Shown here: in pieces, positions 36,501 to 39,500 of the stretch
How positions within the stretch are numbered: position 1 is the stretch's first letter
How the letters are laid out: every line of letters begins with the position of its first letter
NCBI GenBank assembly: GCA_000002445.1
Contig: CP000071.1
Location: forward strand, 512,001 to 576,000
Length of the DNA: 64,000 nt
Direction of reading: 5' to 3'
Source of the DNA: Trypanosoma brucei
Lineage: Eukaryota
Position numbers: made by a program

Positions 36501-39500
36501 TGCGGCTTCGTGGTGAATTGTTATGAAGTGTGCGTAGATAAATAAATTTATTTTTAAAATTTCAAGTGTATTCCCCTCTGTGATACCATCATAATTGTTA
36601 TTTTTTGGCGTTCATTTACTTGCTTTTATTTTTTCCAGAGTGTGAAATCACAGAAGCAAAAATAAGGTAATCAAGTAAGATCTAAATGCGTTTTAAAGAG
36701 CTCTAATTTCTTGGCTTATTCACTTATTCGTTGATATTTTATTGAATAATCCTACATATTTTTGGCAGATGAATCAATTGCTTAATTATATATGTGTTTA
36801 TTTTGCGTTTTTTTTAAATGATATCTTTTATCGTTCCACTTATTTTTGGGGTGAGTGACTTCAGTGACTGACGTTATAAATGAAGAAAAATAAGAGTAGA
36901 ATTAATAATGTCGCGACGTCCTTCTCTTCTCTTTCATCCCACCCTTTTCGTTTTATTAAAAAAAATGAGATGGTAAAATGTCGCACTAGAGCACATGTCA
37001 GGATTGAAAGGAAAAGAAAAACTGTTAACTGCAACGTCGATATTAAAATTAAAGGAAAGGAAAAAGTACATACTAAATCAATAATTAAGATTGTTAGTGT
37101 TAAATGTTATTATGATAAAAGCGAGGCGGATCGTTATTTCAGCGGTGTTGGGCAACGTTAGGAATGACAGAACAAGAGCAATAAAAAAAGGAAGTAGCAG
37201 TGACTTGTCTGTTAGTGTATTTGCGTTCACTTCTGCACACCTCTGCACTTCATCGTTTCCTCTATTTCATTTCTTTATTAATTTTTTTTTCTTTAGATGA
37301 GGAAACCCCTTCGTTTTTTTCTTCTCACTCTCCATTTGGGAGGGGGAGCGGGCGGGTGAAGCGTTATCACAGTTTTGAAACGCACTAAATGCAGTGGTGA
37401 CATCGCGGTTCTACTTGTTTTACCTATTAGTGTATTTGTTTCTTCGCACACTCCTTAATCTCAATCACTTCAGATTACATATGCGACTTGTACCTTTTTC
37501 TTTTTTCATTGTAGAGGATCGTTTCTTCTTTTCTTTGATTGATTGATTGGTTTGCGTTTGTTTGCTTTAATTATGTTTGAACATTTTTCAAATTCAAGAT
37601 TAAAACGGGAAAAGTTGGACCACATGGCGCCGTAACTCAACCACATTACGTCGAGCAACTGAAGAAAATTGTAGCGCGTGATGAATAAATACAAACGACC
37701 AATAATCGGAAGCGTCAGTAACACCTCACGCATGACGCCACTTTGAATGCAATACTAATTATCTGACTCATATCCCCGTTTCCTCATTTTCCTCCTTTTT
37801 GTTTCTATTCCGTTACACCTCCGCTTCGCTCGTGGCATTCTTCCAGTGAGCGCACTTACGATGGATGGTGGAGGAAGAATATGAATGTGCAACACTTGCG
37901 TTCGTTGGCTTCGGATGCAACAACAATGGCTTTACCTCGATGATGTGTATGAGAACAAGCATATGTCCGAGCTGACCACAATTGTGGCACAATGAGAGCA
38001 TTACTCGAGTCCTTGAAAGCTGAGTGGTATCGTACCTTTCTTTCTTTGCTTTAACTTATGATGCAAAGCAAATAAACAGCGGGGGAAACCTCGTCTCAAA
38101 ATGTGATTTTGCGTGAACGAGCGTTTTCAAGCGTCATCCACTGACTCATATCCCCGTTTCCTCATTTTCCTCCTTTTTGTTTCTATTCCGTTACACCTCC
38201 GCTTCGCTCGTGGCATTCTTCCAGTGAGTGCACTTACGATGAACGGTGGAGGAAGAATATAAATGTGCAACACTTGCGTTCATTGGCTTCGGATGCAACA
38301 ACAATGGCTTTACCTCGATGATGTGTATGAGAACAAGCATATGTCCGAGCTGACCACAATTGTGGTACAATGAGAGCATTACTCGAGTCCTTGAAAGCTG
38401 AGTGGTATCGTACCTTTCTTTCTTTGCTTTAACTTATGATGCAAAGCAAATAAACAGCGGGGGAAACCTCGTCTCAAAATGTGATTTTGCGTGAACGAGC
38501 GTTTTCAAGCGTCATCCACTGACTCATATCCCCGTTTCCTCATTTTCCTCCTTTTTGTTTCTATTCCGTTACACCTCCGCTTCGCTCGTGGCATTCTTCC
38601 AGTGAGCGCACTTACGATGGATGGTGGAGGAAGAATATGAATGTGCAACACTTGCATTCATTGGCTTCGGATGCAACAACAATGGCTTTACCTCGATGAT
38701 GTGTATGAGAACAAGCATATGTCCGAGCTGACCACAATTGTGGCACAATGAGAGCATTACTCGAGTCCTTGAAAGCTGAGTGGTATCGTACCTTTCTTTC
38801 TTTGCTTTAACTTATGATGCAAAGCAAATAAACAGCGGGGGAAACCTCGTCTCAAAATGTGATTTTGCGTGAACGACCGTTTTCAAGCGTCATCCACTGA
38901 CTCATATCCCCGTTTCCTCATTTTCCTCCTTTTTGTTTCTATTCCGTTACACCTCCGCTTCGCTCGTGGCATTCTTCCAGTGAGCGCACTTACGATGGAT
39001 GGTGGAGGAAGAATATAAATGTGCACCCTGGCGATGCCGGTCACCTCAACGTGGTGCCAGGGTCCAGTACCCCGTATCATCGGGGGAAGCCAAGAGCCAG
39101 CAGCGTTCCTTTCATGGGGAACACTGCTGTGCTCCGGATACGGCATCATACAGCACAGGGATCAGCAGCGTCTTGTTGGGACACCGTTTTTCATTTGTCG
39201 GTCCCTGGGCACGTGCCAGCGTGCCATCAGCAGTATCATCCGCACTAAGATGCTGCTGTCCGGTGATGTGGAACTCCAAAAAAGGATTGCTAATTGACAT
39301 CTTTTGGAGTTCCGGGGTGGGAGGCTTCTCGCCCCATCTGCTGTATTCCGTTCATCTGCGGAAATACAACAAGAGTTATAGAGGGTGTGTTAGGATGAAT
39401 AAAAAAAGGGAGGCTCTGCCACAGTTGCCAGACCGATAGCATCTCAGGGCTCTACGGTGATGGCTGATGGCCGCGCCAGTGGGGGGAAACTCTCACGAAG

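What the first reader, a model, noticed from the sequence alone, without database searches (positions are those of the whole stretch)
37674..39025. Unannotated-looking tandem snoRNA gene cluster (378-bp unit x ~3.3) downstream of the last plus-strand protein-coding gene
Each 378-bp unit has no credible protein coding; its only ORFs are identical antisense 62-aa artefacts. What it does have is the grammar of kinetoplastid snoRNA clusters. There is a C/D module with C box GATGATG, D' CUGA, C' AUGAGA and D CUGA, closed by a 4-bp terminal stem (uacc/ggua). There is a second, more degenerate C/D module. There is also a ~95-nt single hairpin with an internal pocket and a 3' AGA box, which is the trypanosomatid H/ACA form. 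A divergent extra copy with a perfect GUGAUGA C box sits just upstream (37674-37770). Trypanosomatid snoRNAs are known to be encoded as reiterated polycistronic clusters, and this array lies on the same strand as the gene array it follows.
Basis: partly seen in the sequence, partly recalled or inferred. Interest (0 to 1): 0.6.

Follow-up and report, generated by a model that had tools for sequence, protein, structure and literature searches.

The report
Known trypanosome snoRNA gene cluster TB8Cs2

Summary
There is a 378-bp unit repeated 3.3 times at 98% identity at 37763-39025, with one extra C/D gene just upstream at 37674-37770.

The snoRNA interpretation is right, but this is the published Trypanosoma brucei cluster TB8Cs2.
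- The upstream gene product is 100% identical to a TREU927 protein on a 2.48-Mb contig.
- Rfam family RF01549, "TB8Cs2H1", hits all four copies of the hairpin at 78-82 bits against a threshold of 40.

Gene order is C0, then (H1, C1, C2) three times, then a fourth H1.

The antisense elements match rRNA exactly at experimentally mapped sites:
- C1 matches SSU Am28(/Um29) and Cm38.
- C0 matches SSU Um2026.
- C2 matches LSU-alpha Um1442.
- H1A matches LSU-beta Psi1299.
- H1B matches LSU-beta Psi1209.

- The H/ACA-like RNA is about 62 nt, not about 95 nt.
- The "divergent extra copy" is a distinct snoRNA, C0.
- The array holds two H1 guide isoforms, in the order B, A, B, B.

The array ends at a retroposon carrying the Pr77 hallmark. 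T. b. gambiense has the same junction but 5.3 units.

Verdict: already known, low interest.

The parts
37674..37770 (+). TB8Cs2C0, a single-copy box C/D snoRNA upstream of the array. C box GUGAUGA is at 37678-37684. The D' guide CGACCAAUAAU is at 37696-37706, followed by the degenerate D' box CGGA at 37707-37710. A second antisense element UGCAAUACU lies at 37748-37756. The D box CUGA is at 37763-37766.
   Evidence: The 11-nt D' guide is perfectly complementary to SSU rRNA in three kinetoplastid-like rDNA contigs. The target reads AUUAUUGGUCG. The T. brucei LC-MS fragment CAAUUA(Um)UG puts Um2026 opposite the 5th nucleotide upstream of CGGA, and this site is assigned to TB8Cs2C0. The segment has no similarity to the repeat unit. 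It is 100% identical in T. b. gambiense.
37763..39025 (+). Tandem array of a 378-bp unit, 3.3 copies. Each unit holds H1, then C1, then C2.
   Evidence: TRF period 378, 98% matches, score 2463; BLASTN copies. Only 8 variable columns among the four TREU927 copies.
37817..37878 (+). TB8Cs2H1 isoform B, an H/ACA-like single hairpin. The lower stem is 37818-37824 paired with 37868-37874. The 5' pocket strand UUCGC is at 37825-37829 and the 3' pocket strand UGGAUG at 37862-37867. The AGA box is at 37876-37878.
   Evidence: Rfam RF01549, 81.5 bits, E = 1.3e-15. It folds as a hairpin with z = -2.07. The pocket fits T. brucei LSU-beta GAUCCU[Psi1209]UGCGAAG with 4 bp plus 5 bp. The AGA box lies 14 nt from the top of the pocket.
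38195..38256 (+). TB8Cs2H1 isoform A. The 3' pocket strand is UGAACG, and a C-to-U change at 38229 repairs an A.C mismatch in the upper stem.
   Evidence: Rfam 78.3 bits. The published TB8Cs2H1A primer TATTCTTCCTCCACCGTTCA is the exact reverse complement of this copy only. The pocket pairs 6 bp plus 4 bp with LSU-beta GCGUUCA[Psi1299]AGCGAC. Fold z = -3.38.
38573..38634 (+). TB8Cs2H1 isoform B, third copy.
   Evidence: Rfam 81.5 bits. Sequence identical to copy 1.
38951..39012 (+). TB8Cs2H1 isoform B, fourth copy. It is complete and lies in the truncated last unit, 13 nt before the retroposon junction.
   Evidence: Rfam 81.5 bits. Sequence identical to copy 1.
37933..38029 (+). TB8Cs2C1, a double-guide box C/D snoRNA, copy 1. 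The terminal stem is UACC/GGUA. The C box AUGAUGU is at 37940-37946. The D' guide is at 37954-37966, followed by CCGA at 37967-37970. The C' box is at 37991-37997. The D guide is at 38008-38019, followed by the D box CUGA at 38020-38023.
   Evidence: The guides are complementary to SSU 25-36 (12 nt) and 35-45 (11 nt). T. brucei SSU 18-38 reads CAGUAGUCAU(Am)(Um)GCUUGUUU(Cm), with these sites assigned to TB8Cs2C1. Am28 and Cm38 lie opposite the 5th nucleotide upstream of CCGA and CUGA. There is a weak Rfam SNORD27 match of 18.9 bits.
38311..38407 (+). TB8Cs2C1, copy 2.
   Evidence: Repeat register. One substitution, at 38366, lies between D' and C'.
38689..38785 (+). TB8Cs2C1, copy 3.
   Evidence: Repeat register.
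38053..38148 (+). TB8Cs2C2, a box C/D snoRNA, copy 1. The ends are approximate. The C box AUGAUGC is at 38058-38064. The D guide AAGCGUCAUCCA is at 38129-38140. The D box CUGA is at 38141-38144. The D' side has no known target.
   Evidence: The 12-nt guide abuts the D box and is perfectly complementary to T. brucei LSU-alpha 1438-1449, UGGA(Um)GACGCUU. Um1442 lies opposite the 5th nucleotide. The same 12-mer matches three kinetoplastid-like LSU sequences. NOP1 silencing lowers Um at this site to 0.15 of control.
38431..38526 (+). TB8Cs2C2, copy 2.
   Evidence: Repeat register.
38809..38904 (+). TB8Cs2C2, copy 3. Its D box at 38897-38900 opens the partial fourth unit.
   Evidence: Repeat register. 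One substitution, at 38877, lies outside the guide.
39026..39525 (+). Short ingi-clade retroposon (RIME-like, about 500 bp) that ends the array. It begins with a Pr77-type hallmark, CCCTGGCG...CCTCAACGTGGTGCCAGGGTCCAGTAC, and ends in an A-rich tail. It is not part of the snoRNA cluster, but it sets the cluster's 3' boundary.
   Evidence: The sequence resembles the Pr77 signatures of T. brucei SIDER elements printed in the supplement of PMC4035085. No target-site duplication was found. The identical junction occurs in T. b. gambiense. The call as RIME proper rests on length and on my recollection of the element.

Best explanation
The region is the Trypanosoma brucei chromosome 8 snoRNA cluster TB8Cs2. 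It consists of one gene for the C/D snoRNA C0, followed by a head-to-tail array of 378-bp units. Each unit encodes an H/ACA-like single-hairpin snoRNA (H1) and two C/D snoRNAs (C1 and C2). The array is cut off inside its fourth unit by a retroposon.

How it works, by inference from the literature on trypanosomatid clusters: the cluster sits at the 3' end of the plus-strand polycistronic unit and is transcribed by RNA polymerase II as one long precursor. The individual snoRNAs are then trimmed out of it.

Shown here by complementarity, and in the literature by mapping:
- C1 directs 2'-O-methylation of SSU A28 (and U29) through its D' guide and of SSU C38 through its D guide.
- C0 directs SSU Um2026 through its D' guide.
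- C2 directs LSU-alpha Um1442 through its D guide.
- The two H1 isoforms differ by two bases in the 3' strand of the pseudouridylation pocket. H1A directs LSU-beta Psi1299 in the peptidyl-transferase-centre region. H1B directs LSU-beta Psi1209.

Tandem repetition supplies gene dosage. Unequal crossing-over changes the copy number and the A:B isoform ratio between strains.
For: **Identity**
- The upstream gene product is 100% identical to a T. b. brucei TREU927 protein on a 2,481,190-bp contig.
- Rfam RF01549 'TB8Cs2H1' hits all four hairpin copies at 78-82 bits, against a gathering score of 40.
- The published H1A primer matches copy 2 exactly.

**Guides**
- A 21-nt pattern built only from the two C1 guides retrieved at least 120 metagenome contigs. 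In 6 of 6 long contigs the match lies at SSU rRNA positions 25-45.
- An unbiased k-mer scan of 37660-38150 against kinetoplastid-like rDNA found the C0 D' guide (11 nt, SSU) and the C2 D guide (12 nt, LSU). Each lies next to a D-type box.
- With the C1 guides masked, runs of 11 nt or more exceed shuffled controls: 4 observed against a mean of 0.65 (7 of 1000 shuffles reach it), and 5 against 0.47 (0 of 1000). The third locus is not significant at 2 against 0.55.
- T. brucei's own rRNA sequence and mapped modifications place Am28, Cm38, Um2026 and Um1442 each opposite the 5th nucleotide upstream of the box.
- The same data place Psi1299 and Psi1209 in the H1A and H1B pockets.

**Expression and function, from the literature**
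- Small-RNA read counts are listed for H1A and H1B.
- RiboMeth-seq scores fall on NOP1 silencing at SSU_56 (0.65 of control), SSU_2054 (0.78) and LSUa_1448 (0.15).

**Conservation**
- Across ten units in TREU927 and DAL972 there are 13 variable columns. None lies in a C/D guide, a C box or a D box. Both H1 isoforms occur in both subspecies.

**Transcription model**
- Polycistronic Pol II transcription and processing of trypanosome snoRNA clusters is stated in PMC3273796.
Against: - No homologue of the cluster was found near the orthologous kinase gene in T. vivax, T. cruzi or T. melophagium. Cross-species conservation of the locus was therefore shown only for T. b. gambiense.
- C2 and C0 have no obvious terminal stem, and their C', D' and last C-box positions are degenerate.
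- The H1B-Psi1209 duplex is short: 4 bp after a U.U mismatch, plus 5 bp. Reported modification at that site is low in one assay (0.25 in the table).
- The D' side of C2 has no target, and the D-side element of C0 is not in methylation register.
- Transcription and processing of this particular array were not tested here.
Confidence: 0.97

Rival explanations
1. The array is a non-functional tandem satellite, or a set of decayed snoRNA pseudogenes, whose box-like motifs are chance matches.
For: C/D box motifs are short and occur often by chance. Several boxes here are degenerate: CCGA, CGGA, AUGAUGC. MFE z-scores for the C/D segments are not significant.
Against: Rfam gives 78-82 bits with E about 1e-15 for H1. 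Four independent 11-12-nt antisense elements hit rRNA exactly at mapped Nm sites in the 5th-nucleotide register. No substitutions fall in guides or in C or D boxes across ten units. Read counts and NOP1/CBF5 knock-down effects are published.
Confidence: 0.01
2. The repeat encodes a small protein from the identical 62-aa minus-strand ORFs.
For: Three ORFs of 62 aa recur at 37813-38001, 38191-38379 and 38569-38757. One gives a sub-threshold zf-CCHC match: E = 9e-4, 19.7 bits against a cutoff of 20.8, over 10 residues.
Against: The ORFs are antisense to the transcription direction of the gene array and overlap H1 and C1. Their recurrence follows from the DNA repeat alone. The Pfam match is below threshold and covers only 10 residues. 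In the copy-2 unit, two of the three H1 substitutions specify a different rRNA target and the third repairs an upper-stem mismatch, which is the pattern expected for RNA rather than protein constraint.
Confidence: 0.01
3. Only some copies are functional. The last H1B, which abuts the retroposon, or the H1B isoform in general, may be a decaying variant of H1A with no real target.
For: The H1B pocket also pairs with the Psi1299 site: 6 bp including two G.U, plus 4 bp. The H1B-Psi1209 duplex is weak. Psi1209 shows low stoichiometry in one assay and no reduction in the nanopore assay on CBF5 silencing.
Against: H1B is retained in both TREU927 (3 copies) and DAL972 (1 copy) with an identical pocket. 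The 5' pocket strand is perfectly complementary to GCGAA(G) downstream of Psi1209. H1A cannot pair at that site. Separate read counts for H1B are published. The Rfam consensus carries the H1B-type GGAUGG.
Confidence: 0.1

Closest known systems
T. brucei snoRNA cluster TB8Cs2 (TB8Cs2C0, C1, C2, H1A and H1B; attributed to Liang et al. 2005; Rfam RF01549 for H1)
   Same: It is the same locus. The organism and chromosome match. The Rfam family hits at twice the threshold. The published H1A primer matches exactly. Every published target assignment is reproduced by the guide sequences in the window.
   Different: Nothing of substance differs. The original description (PMC1370750) could not be read here. 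I therefore cannot say whether the unit order, the copy number of 3.3, the isoform order B, A, B, B, or the retroposon junction were described there.
SNORD27 (U27) family of box C/D snoRNAs (Rfam RF00086)
   Same: The D' half of C1 gives a weak SNORD27 match at the same place in all three copies (18.9 bits). It targets the universally conserved SSU 5' sequence CAUAUGCUUGU. From memory, human U27 and yeast snR74 guide the equivalent 18S Am27/Am28.
   Different: The score is far below the gathering threshold of 52, so there is no demonstrable sequence homology beyond the guide. C1 carries a second guide, for Cm38.
Other reiterated trypanosomatid snoRNA clusters, such as the 649-bp array in this same window (presumably TB8Cs1)
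   Same: They share tandem head-to-tail units on the coding strand of a polycistronic unit, and C/D genes with rRNA guides directly upstream of CUGA. This organisation is described as general for trypanosomes in PMC3273796.
   Different: The unit length, snoRNA content and targets differ. The 649-bp array is conserved next to the lysyl-tRNA synthetase gene in T. melophagium. TB8Cs2 was not found there.

Membership tests
Box C/D snoRNA (C0, C1, C2) | A C box (RUGAUGA) near the 5' end and a D box (CUGA) near the 3' end | tested here: met
   C0 has GUGAUGA at 37678-37684 and CUGA at 37763-37766. C1 has AUGAUGU at 37940-37946 and CUGA at 38020-38023. C2 has AUGAUGC at 38058-38064 and CUGA at 38141-38144. 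The last C-box position is degenerate in C1 and C2.
Box C/D snoRNA (C0, C1, C2) | An antisense element of at least 10 nt complementary to the target RNA, ending next to a D or D' box | tested here: met
   Perfect complements of 11-12 nt to rRNA were found: C0 D' (11 nt), C1 D' (12 nt), C1 D (11 nt) and C2 D (12 nt). These were confirmed on T. brucei rRNA for C1 and C2 and on LC-MS fragments for C0. Enrichment over shuffles was seen in 2 of 3 rDNA loci.
Box C/D snoRNA (C0, C1, C2) | The methylated nucleotide pairs with the 5th nucleotide upstream of the D or D' box | tested here: met
   Am28 pairs with T37962, Cm38 with G38015, Um2026 with A37702 and Um1442 with A38136. All four are mapped Nm sites assigned to these snoRNAs. 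For C1 D' and C0 D' this requires the degenerate boxes CCGA and CGGA.
Box C/D snoRNA (C0, C1, C2) | Methylation depends on the fibrillarin (NOP1) snoRNP | not testable with these tools
   Literature only. NOP1 silencing lowers RiboMeth scores at SSU_56 (0.65), SSU_2054 (0.78) and LSUa_1448 (0.15) (PMC9283944).
Trypanosomatid H/ACA-like snoRNA (single hairpin, AGA box) | A single hairpin with an internal pseudouridylation pocket and a 3' AGA box | tested here: met
   The Rfam covariance model RF01549 aligns end to end at 78-82 bits. The MFE is a single hairpin with z = -2.1 and -3.4. AGA lies at 37876-37878.
Trypanosomatid H/ACA-like snoRNA (single hairpin, AGA box) | Bipartite complementarity of the pocket strands flanking the target U, with about 14-15 nt from the pocket to the box | tested here: met
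   H1A pairs 6 + 4 bp around LSU-beta Psi1299. H1B pairs 4 + 5 bp around Psi1209. There are 14 nt between the top of the pocket and AGA, counted. The H1B duplex is weak.
Trypanosomatid reiterated snoRNA cluster | Tandemly repeated units that mix C/D and H/ACA-like genes, on the sense strand of a polycistronic unit | tested here: met
   378 bp repeated 3.3 times. Each unit has one H/ACA-like and two C/D genes. The array is on the plus strand, after plus-strand genes that end at 36434. The general organisation is described in PMC3273796.
Trypanosomatid reiterated snoRNA cluster | Expression as discrete small RNAs processed from a polycistronic precursor | not testable with these tools
   Literature only. 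Read counts for TB8Cs2H1A and H1B are in the PMC4855143 supplement.
Cluster TB8Cs2 specifically | Sequence identity with the published TB8Cs2 snoRNAs | tested here: met
   The Rfam family is named after it. The published 20-nt H1A primer matches copy 2 exactly. Targets of C0, C1, C2, H1A and H1B are reproduced. Full published sequences could not be obtained because Liang 2005 is not held.

The most novel reading that the evidence does not exclude
Two small features may not have been described.

1. The two antisense elements of C0 pair with one continuous 20-nt stretch of SSU rRNA. The D-side element covers 2013-2021 and the D' guide covers 2022-2032. Only the D' element is in methylation register. 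The D-side element may therefore act as an accessory clamp that boosts Um2026 or chaperones folding of the SSU 3' domain.

2. The array ends exactly at the +1 C of a Pr77 hallmark, a known internal promoter and HDV-like ribozyme of ingi-clade retroposons. This lies 13 nt after the last H1 gene, and the junction is conserved in T. b. gambiense. Ribozyme self-cleavage could define the 3' end of the snoRNA precursor at the end of the transcription unit.
Probability: 0.12. Interest if true: 0.35.

Novelty: already known. Interest (0 to 1): 0.08.

Why it matters
The main value is as a check on the scan. A reader working from raw sequence recognised a real kinetoplastid snoRNA cluster and got most of its grammar right.

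Biologically, the cluster is part of the well-studied T. brucei rRNA-modification machinery. One of its products, H1A, guides a pseudouridine in the peptidyl-transferase-centre region that the source tables flag "Hyper", which I take to mean hypermodified in bloodstream forms.

The only possibly fresh points are minor:
- The copy number and H1A:H1B ratio differ between subspecies.
- The two elements of C0 pair with one continuous stretch of SSU rRNA.
- A retroposon junction is conserved at the array's end.

Tried and rejected
1. The primary descriptions (Liang 2005, PMC1370750; Liang 2007, PMC1828925) are not held. I used later papers and their supplements instead.
2. Exact-protein look-ups for the TREU927 genes flanking the array returned nothing.
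3. I tried the upstream PAD/nodulin-like MFS gene as a synteny anchor and rejected it. It belongs to a multi-copy family and led to a paralogous array in T. grayi and a contig-end fragment in T. congolense.
4. I then used the downstream kinase as an anchor.
   - T. b. gambiense gave the orthologous array.
   - T. vivax, T. cruzi and T. melophagium gave no TB8Cs2H1 hit. They also gave no C1 or C2 guide element followed by a D box at one mismatch or fewer; the few short one-mismatch hits look like chance.
   - The 744-bp T. melophagium array looked at first like an orthologue. It carries the guides of a different cluster, the one at window 21.4-25 kb.
5. Rfam at E <= 10 over 37400-39400 found no C/D family above threshold, only SNORD27 at 18.9 bits. 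It found no HDV-like ribozyme family at the retroposon 5' end.
6. A search for a target-site duplication around the retroposon found none of 7 nt or more.
7. A literature search for the retroposon 5' sequence as text found nothing.
8. The nucleotide table for SSU around position 2026 is missing from the stored supplement. The C0 target therefore rests on LC-MS fragments plus kinetoplastid-like metagenomic rDNA.
9. No complement of 9 nt or more to the kinetoplastid-like rDNA fell in the stretch upstream of the C2 D' box, 38078-38108. This agrees with the published statement that this side has no predicted target.
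Full report
**Observation**

Tandem Repeats Finder reports one array in 36000-41000: 37763-39025, period 378, 3.3 copies, 98% matches, no indels, score 2463. BLASTN of the first unit against the whole window finds three full copies, at 37763, 38141 and 38519, plus a 129-nt partial copy at 38897-39025. 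It finds nothing elsewhere. Long plus-strand ORFs end at 36434 and long minus-strand ORFs start at 46245. The array therefore sits at the 3' end of the plus-strand gene array, before a convergent strand switch.

**Identity of the window**

The genes around the array are, in order:
- a lysyl-tRNA-synthetase-type gene;
- four leishmanolysin (GP63) genes;
- a nodulin-like MFS gene, then the array;
- a protein kinase on the other strand.

The MFS protein is 100% identical to a T. brucei brucei TREU927 protein on a 2,481,190-bp contig. The window is therefore T. brucei chromosome 8.

**What the repeat encodes**

At gathering thresholds, Rfam finds the family RF01549, "Trypanosomatid snoRNA TB8Cs2H1", once per unit. 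The hits are at 37817-37878, 38195-38256, 38573-38634 and 38951-39012, all on the plus strand. They score 78.3-81.5 bits against a threshold of 40 and align end to end. The family is named after this very cluster.

Published tables list the cluster's members and their mapped targets (PMC9283944; PMC10662448 supplements):

| snoRNA | Target |
|---|---|
| TB8Cs2C0 | SSU Um2026 |
| TB8Cs2C1 | SSU Am28, Um29, Cm38 |
| TB8Cs2C2 | LSU-alpha Um1442 |
| TB8Cs2H1A | LSU-beta Psi1299 |
| TB8Cs2H1B | LSU-beta Psi1209 |

**Testing the C/D guides**

I built a 21-nt pattern only from the reverse complements of the two putative C1 guides, CATATGCTTGTTTCAAGGACT, and scanned metagenome contigs. At least 120 contigs matched. 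In six of six long contigs, Rfam places the match at positions 25-45 of eukaryotic SSU rRNA. Three of these contigs (L034, L079, L048) have the long SSU typical of kinetoplastids.

An unbiased scan of 37660-38150 for complements to these rDNAs recovered the two C1 guides, at 37954-37965 and 38008-38018. It also recovered two elements that had not been used to fish the contigs:
- CGACCAATAAT (37696-37706), followed by CGGA, complementary to SSU;
- AAGCGTCATCCA (38129-38140), followed directly by CTGA, complementary to LSU.

With the C1 guides masked, runs of 11 nt or more exceed shuffled controls in two of the three loci. The counts are 4 against a mean of 0.65 (7 of 1000 shuffles reach it) and 5 against 0.47 (0 of 1000). 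The third locus is not significant, at 2 against 0.55 (112 of 1000).

T. brucei's own rRNA, read from the nucleotide tables of PMC10662448, confirms the duplexes.
- SSU 18-38 is CAGUAGUCAU(Am)(Um)GCUUGUUU(Cm).
- LSU-alpha 1438-1449 is UGGA(Um)GACGCUU.
- The LC-MS fragments UAYUG and CAAUUA(Um)UG cover SSU 2015-2028.

In every case the methylated nucleotide lies opposite the 5th nucleotide upstream of the box. Am28 pairs with T37962 and Cm38 with G38015. Um2026 pairs with A37702 and Um1442 with A38136.

For C1 this register requires the D' box to be CCGA (37967-37970).

**The H/ACA-like gene and its two isoforms**

The four H1 copies are not identical. Copy 2 differs at three positions. Two of them, 37864 G>A and 37866 T>C in unit register, lie in the 3' strand of the pseudouridylation pocket and change UGGAUG to UGAACG. 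The third, 37851 C>T, converts an A.C mismatch in the upper stem to A-U.

The published primer for TB8Cs2H1A, TATTCTTCCTCCACCGTTCA, is the exact reverse complement of copy 2 only. Copy 2 is therefore H1A, and copies 1, 3 and 4 are H1B.

T. brucei LSU-beta reads GCGUUCA[Psi1299]AGCGAC and GAUCCU[Psi1209]UGCGAAG.
- The H1A pocket pairs 6 bp (UGAACG with CGUUCA) plus 4 bp (GCGA) around Psi1299.
- The H1B pocket pairs 4 bp (GGAU with AUCC, after a U.U mismatch) plus 5 bp (UUCGC with GCGAA) around Psi1209. H1A cannot pair there.

A scan of kinetoplastid-like LSU picks the Psi1299 site as the best target for H1A. The AGA box lies 14 nt from the top of the pocket. Both isoforms fold as a single hairpin, with z = -2.1 and -3.4.

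**The upstream module**

The segment 37674-37762 has no similarity to the repeat. It has a perfect C box, its own guide and its own mapped target. It is TB8Cs2C0, not a diverged copy. Similarity to the unit begins at its D box, CTGACTCA, which is the same sequence that ends C2.

**Related locus**

The kinase orthologue of T. b. gambiense DAL972 led to the orthologous region, L123. That region holds the same C0 gene at 100% identity. Its array has 5.3 units rather than 3.3, with six H1 hits.

The copy next to C0 is H1B and the other five are H1A. TREU927 has the order B, A, B, B. Across the ten units of both subspecies there are 13 variable columns. None lies in a C/D guide, a C box or a D box. 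One lies in the C' box of C1, A>T in all gambiense copies.

Near the kinase orthologues of T. vivax, T. cruzi and T. melophagium there is no TB8Cs2H1 hit and no convincing TB8Cs2 C/D guide element. Conservation of the locus beyond T. brucei was therefore not shown here. The Rfam seed consensus differs from T. brucei at several positions, which suggests that other species contribute to it. I could not inspect the seed.

**The 3' boundary**

The array stops at 39025, 13 nt after the fourth H1. From 39026 the sequence reads CCCTGGCGATGCCGGTCACCTCAACGTGGTGCCAGGGTCCAGTACCCC. This resembles the Pr77 hallmark printed for T. brucei SIDER elements in the supplement of PMC4035085. That hallmark begins with CCCTGG and contains CCTCAACGTGGCGCCAGGGCCCAGTAC.

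The element is about 500 bp long and ends in an A-rich tail. I found no target-site duplication. I read it as a RIME-like ingi-clade retroposon; the call as RIME proper rests on length and on my recollection of the element. T. b. gambiense has the identical junction. The junction is therefore older than the split of the two subspecies, and the copy number has changed since.

**Mechanism**

Shown here:
- gene content and order;
- the guide-target duplexes and their registers;
- the two isoforms;
- the array's position at the end of the plus-strand unit.

Taken from the literature:
- The RNAs are expressed, with read counts.
- The Nm levels depend on NOP1.
- Trypanosome snoRNA clusters are transcribed polycistronically by Pol II and processed (PMC3273796).

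Inferred:
- This array is transcribed as a continuation of the upstream polycistron.
- Repetition supplies dosage.
- Unequal crossing-over accounts for the copy-number and isoform-ratio differences.

**Comparison and novelty**

This is the published cluster TB8Cs2, so it is already known. The rival readings, a chance satellite and a small antisense protein, are excluded by the evidence above.

Two small points might be new but are unproven.
- The two antisense elements of C0 cover one continuous 20-nt stretch of SSU. AGUAUUGCA (2013-2021) pairs with 37748-37756, and AUUAUUGGUCG (2022-2032) pairs with 37696-37706. Only the second element is in methylation register. This resembles the accessory pairing reported for some yeast C/D snoRNAs, which I recall from memory.
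- The Pr77 hallmark is reported to act as an HDV-like ribozyme that cleaves just upstream of its +1 C (PMC4035085). Here it sits exactly at the array's end.

Both points are speculative.

**Verdict**

The feature is already known, and interest is low.

Noticed in passing
window 21363-~25000 (+): A second tandem snoRNA array lies directly after the lysyl-tRNA synthetase gene. Its unit is 649 bp, repeated about 5.6 times at 99% identity. Each unit has C/D genes with the guides TTTTGCTTCCTC (then 1 nt and CTGA), complementary to the SSU 3' end, and CTGATGTAATGAG, complementary to SSU around position 97. These are the sites published for TB8Cs1C1 (Gm2199) and TB8Cs1C2 (Am97). TRF missed the array because its period exceeds 500, and Rfam has no model for it.
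   Followed up: partly
L126 12183-18490 (T. melophagium JAJSEB010000013.1), minus strand: A 744-bp unit repeated about 9 times lies between the kinase orthologue and the lysyl-tRNA synthetase gene. Unit variants are 77-100% identical. It carries the same two SSU guides as the 649-bp array in the window, so it is the orthologue of that cluster, not of TB8Cs2. Rfam does not recognise it, and small ORFs have been called on it as genes.
   Followed up: partly
window 1208-1277 (+): Rfam hits TB8Cs4H2 (RF01551) at 91.8 bits. This H/ACA-like snoRNA belongs to a third known cluster. It is published as the guide for SSU_2146 Psi, which the source tables flag 'Hyper'. No tandem repeat was found in 1-2100.
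   Followed up: partly
L123 19010-21028 (T. b. gambiense DAL972, FN554971.1): The orthologous TB8Cs2 array has 5.3 units against 3.3 in TREU927, and the opposite isoform balance: 1 H1B and 5 H1A, against 3 H1B and 1 H1A. All gambiense C1 copies have UUGAGA in place of AUGAGA at the C' box.
   Followed up: yes
window 39026-~39525 (+): A retroposon of about 500 bp with a Pr77-type 5' hallmark and an A-rich tail abuts the last H1 gene. It has no target-site duplication. The rest of the fourth repeat unit is absent downstream. The junction is identical in T. b. gambiense.
   Followed up: partly
window 37748-37756 and 37696-37706 (+): The two antisense elements of C0 pair with adjacent SSU segments, 2013-2021 and 2022-2032, giving 20 continuous nucleotides. 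The D-side element ends 6 nt from the D box, so it is out of methylation register. No Nm is listed at the position it would specify.
   Followed up: partly
window 37709-37717 (+) within C0: GAAGCGTCA, just after the C0 D' box, is complementary to the same LSU site that the C2 D guide (AAGCGTCATCCA) targets. This holds in three kinetoplastid-like rDNAs. It could be chance or a trace of common ancestry between C0 and C2.
   Followed up: no
window 38045-38072 (+): An 8-bp inverted repeat, TTTGCTTT...AAAGCAAA, brackets the C box of C2. The 5' arm extended, TTTGCTTTAAC, is also complementary to an LSU segment in two kinetoplastid-like rDNAs. Its significance is unknown.
   Followed up: no
window 39530-46245: About 6.7 kb without a long ORF or Rfam hit lies between the retroposon and the first minus-strand gene. 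This is the convergent strand-switch region. T. b. gambiense is co-linear here at 98% identity.
   Followed up: no
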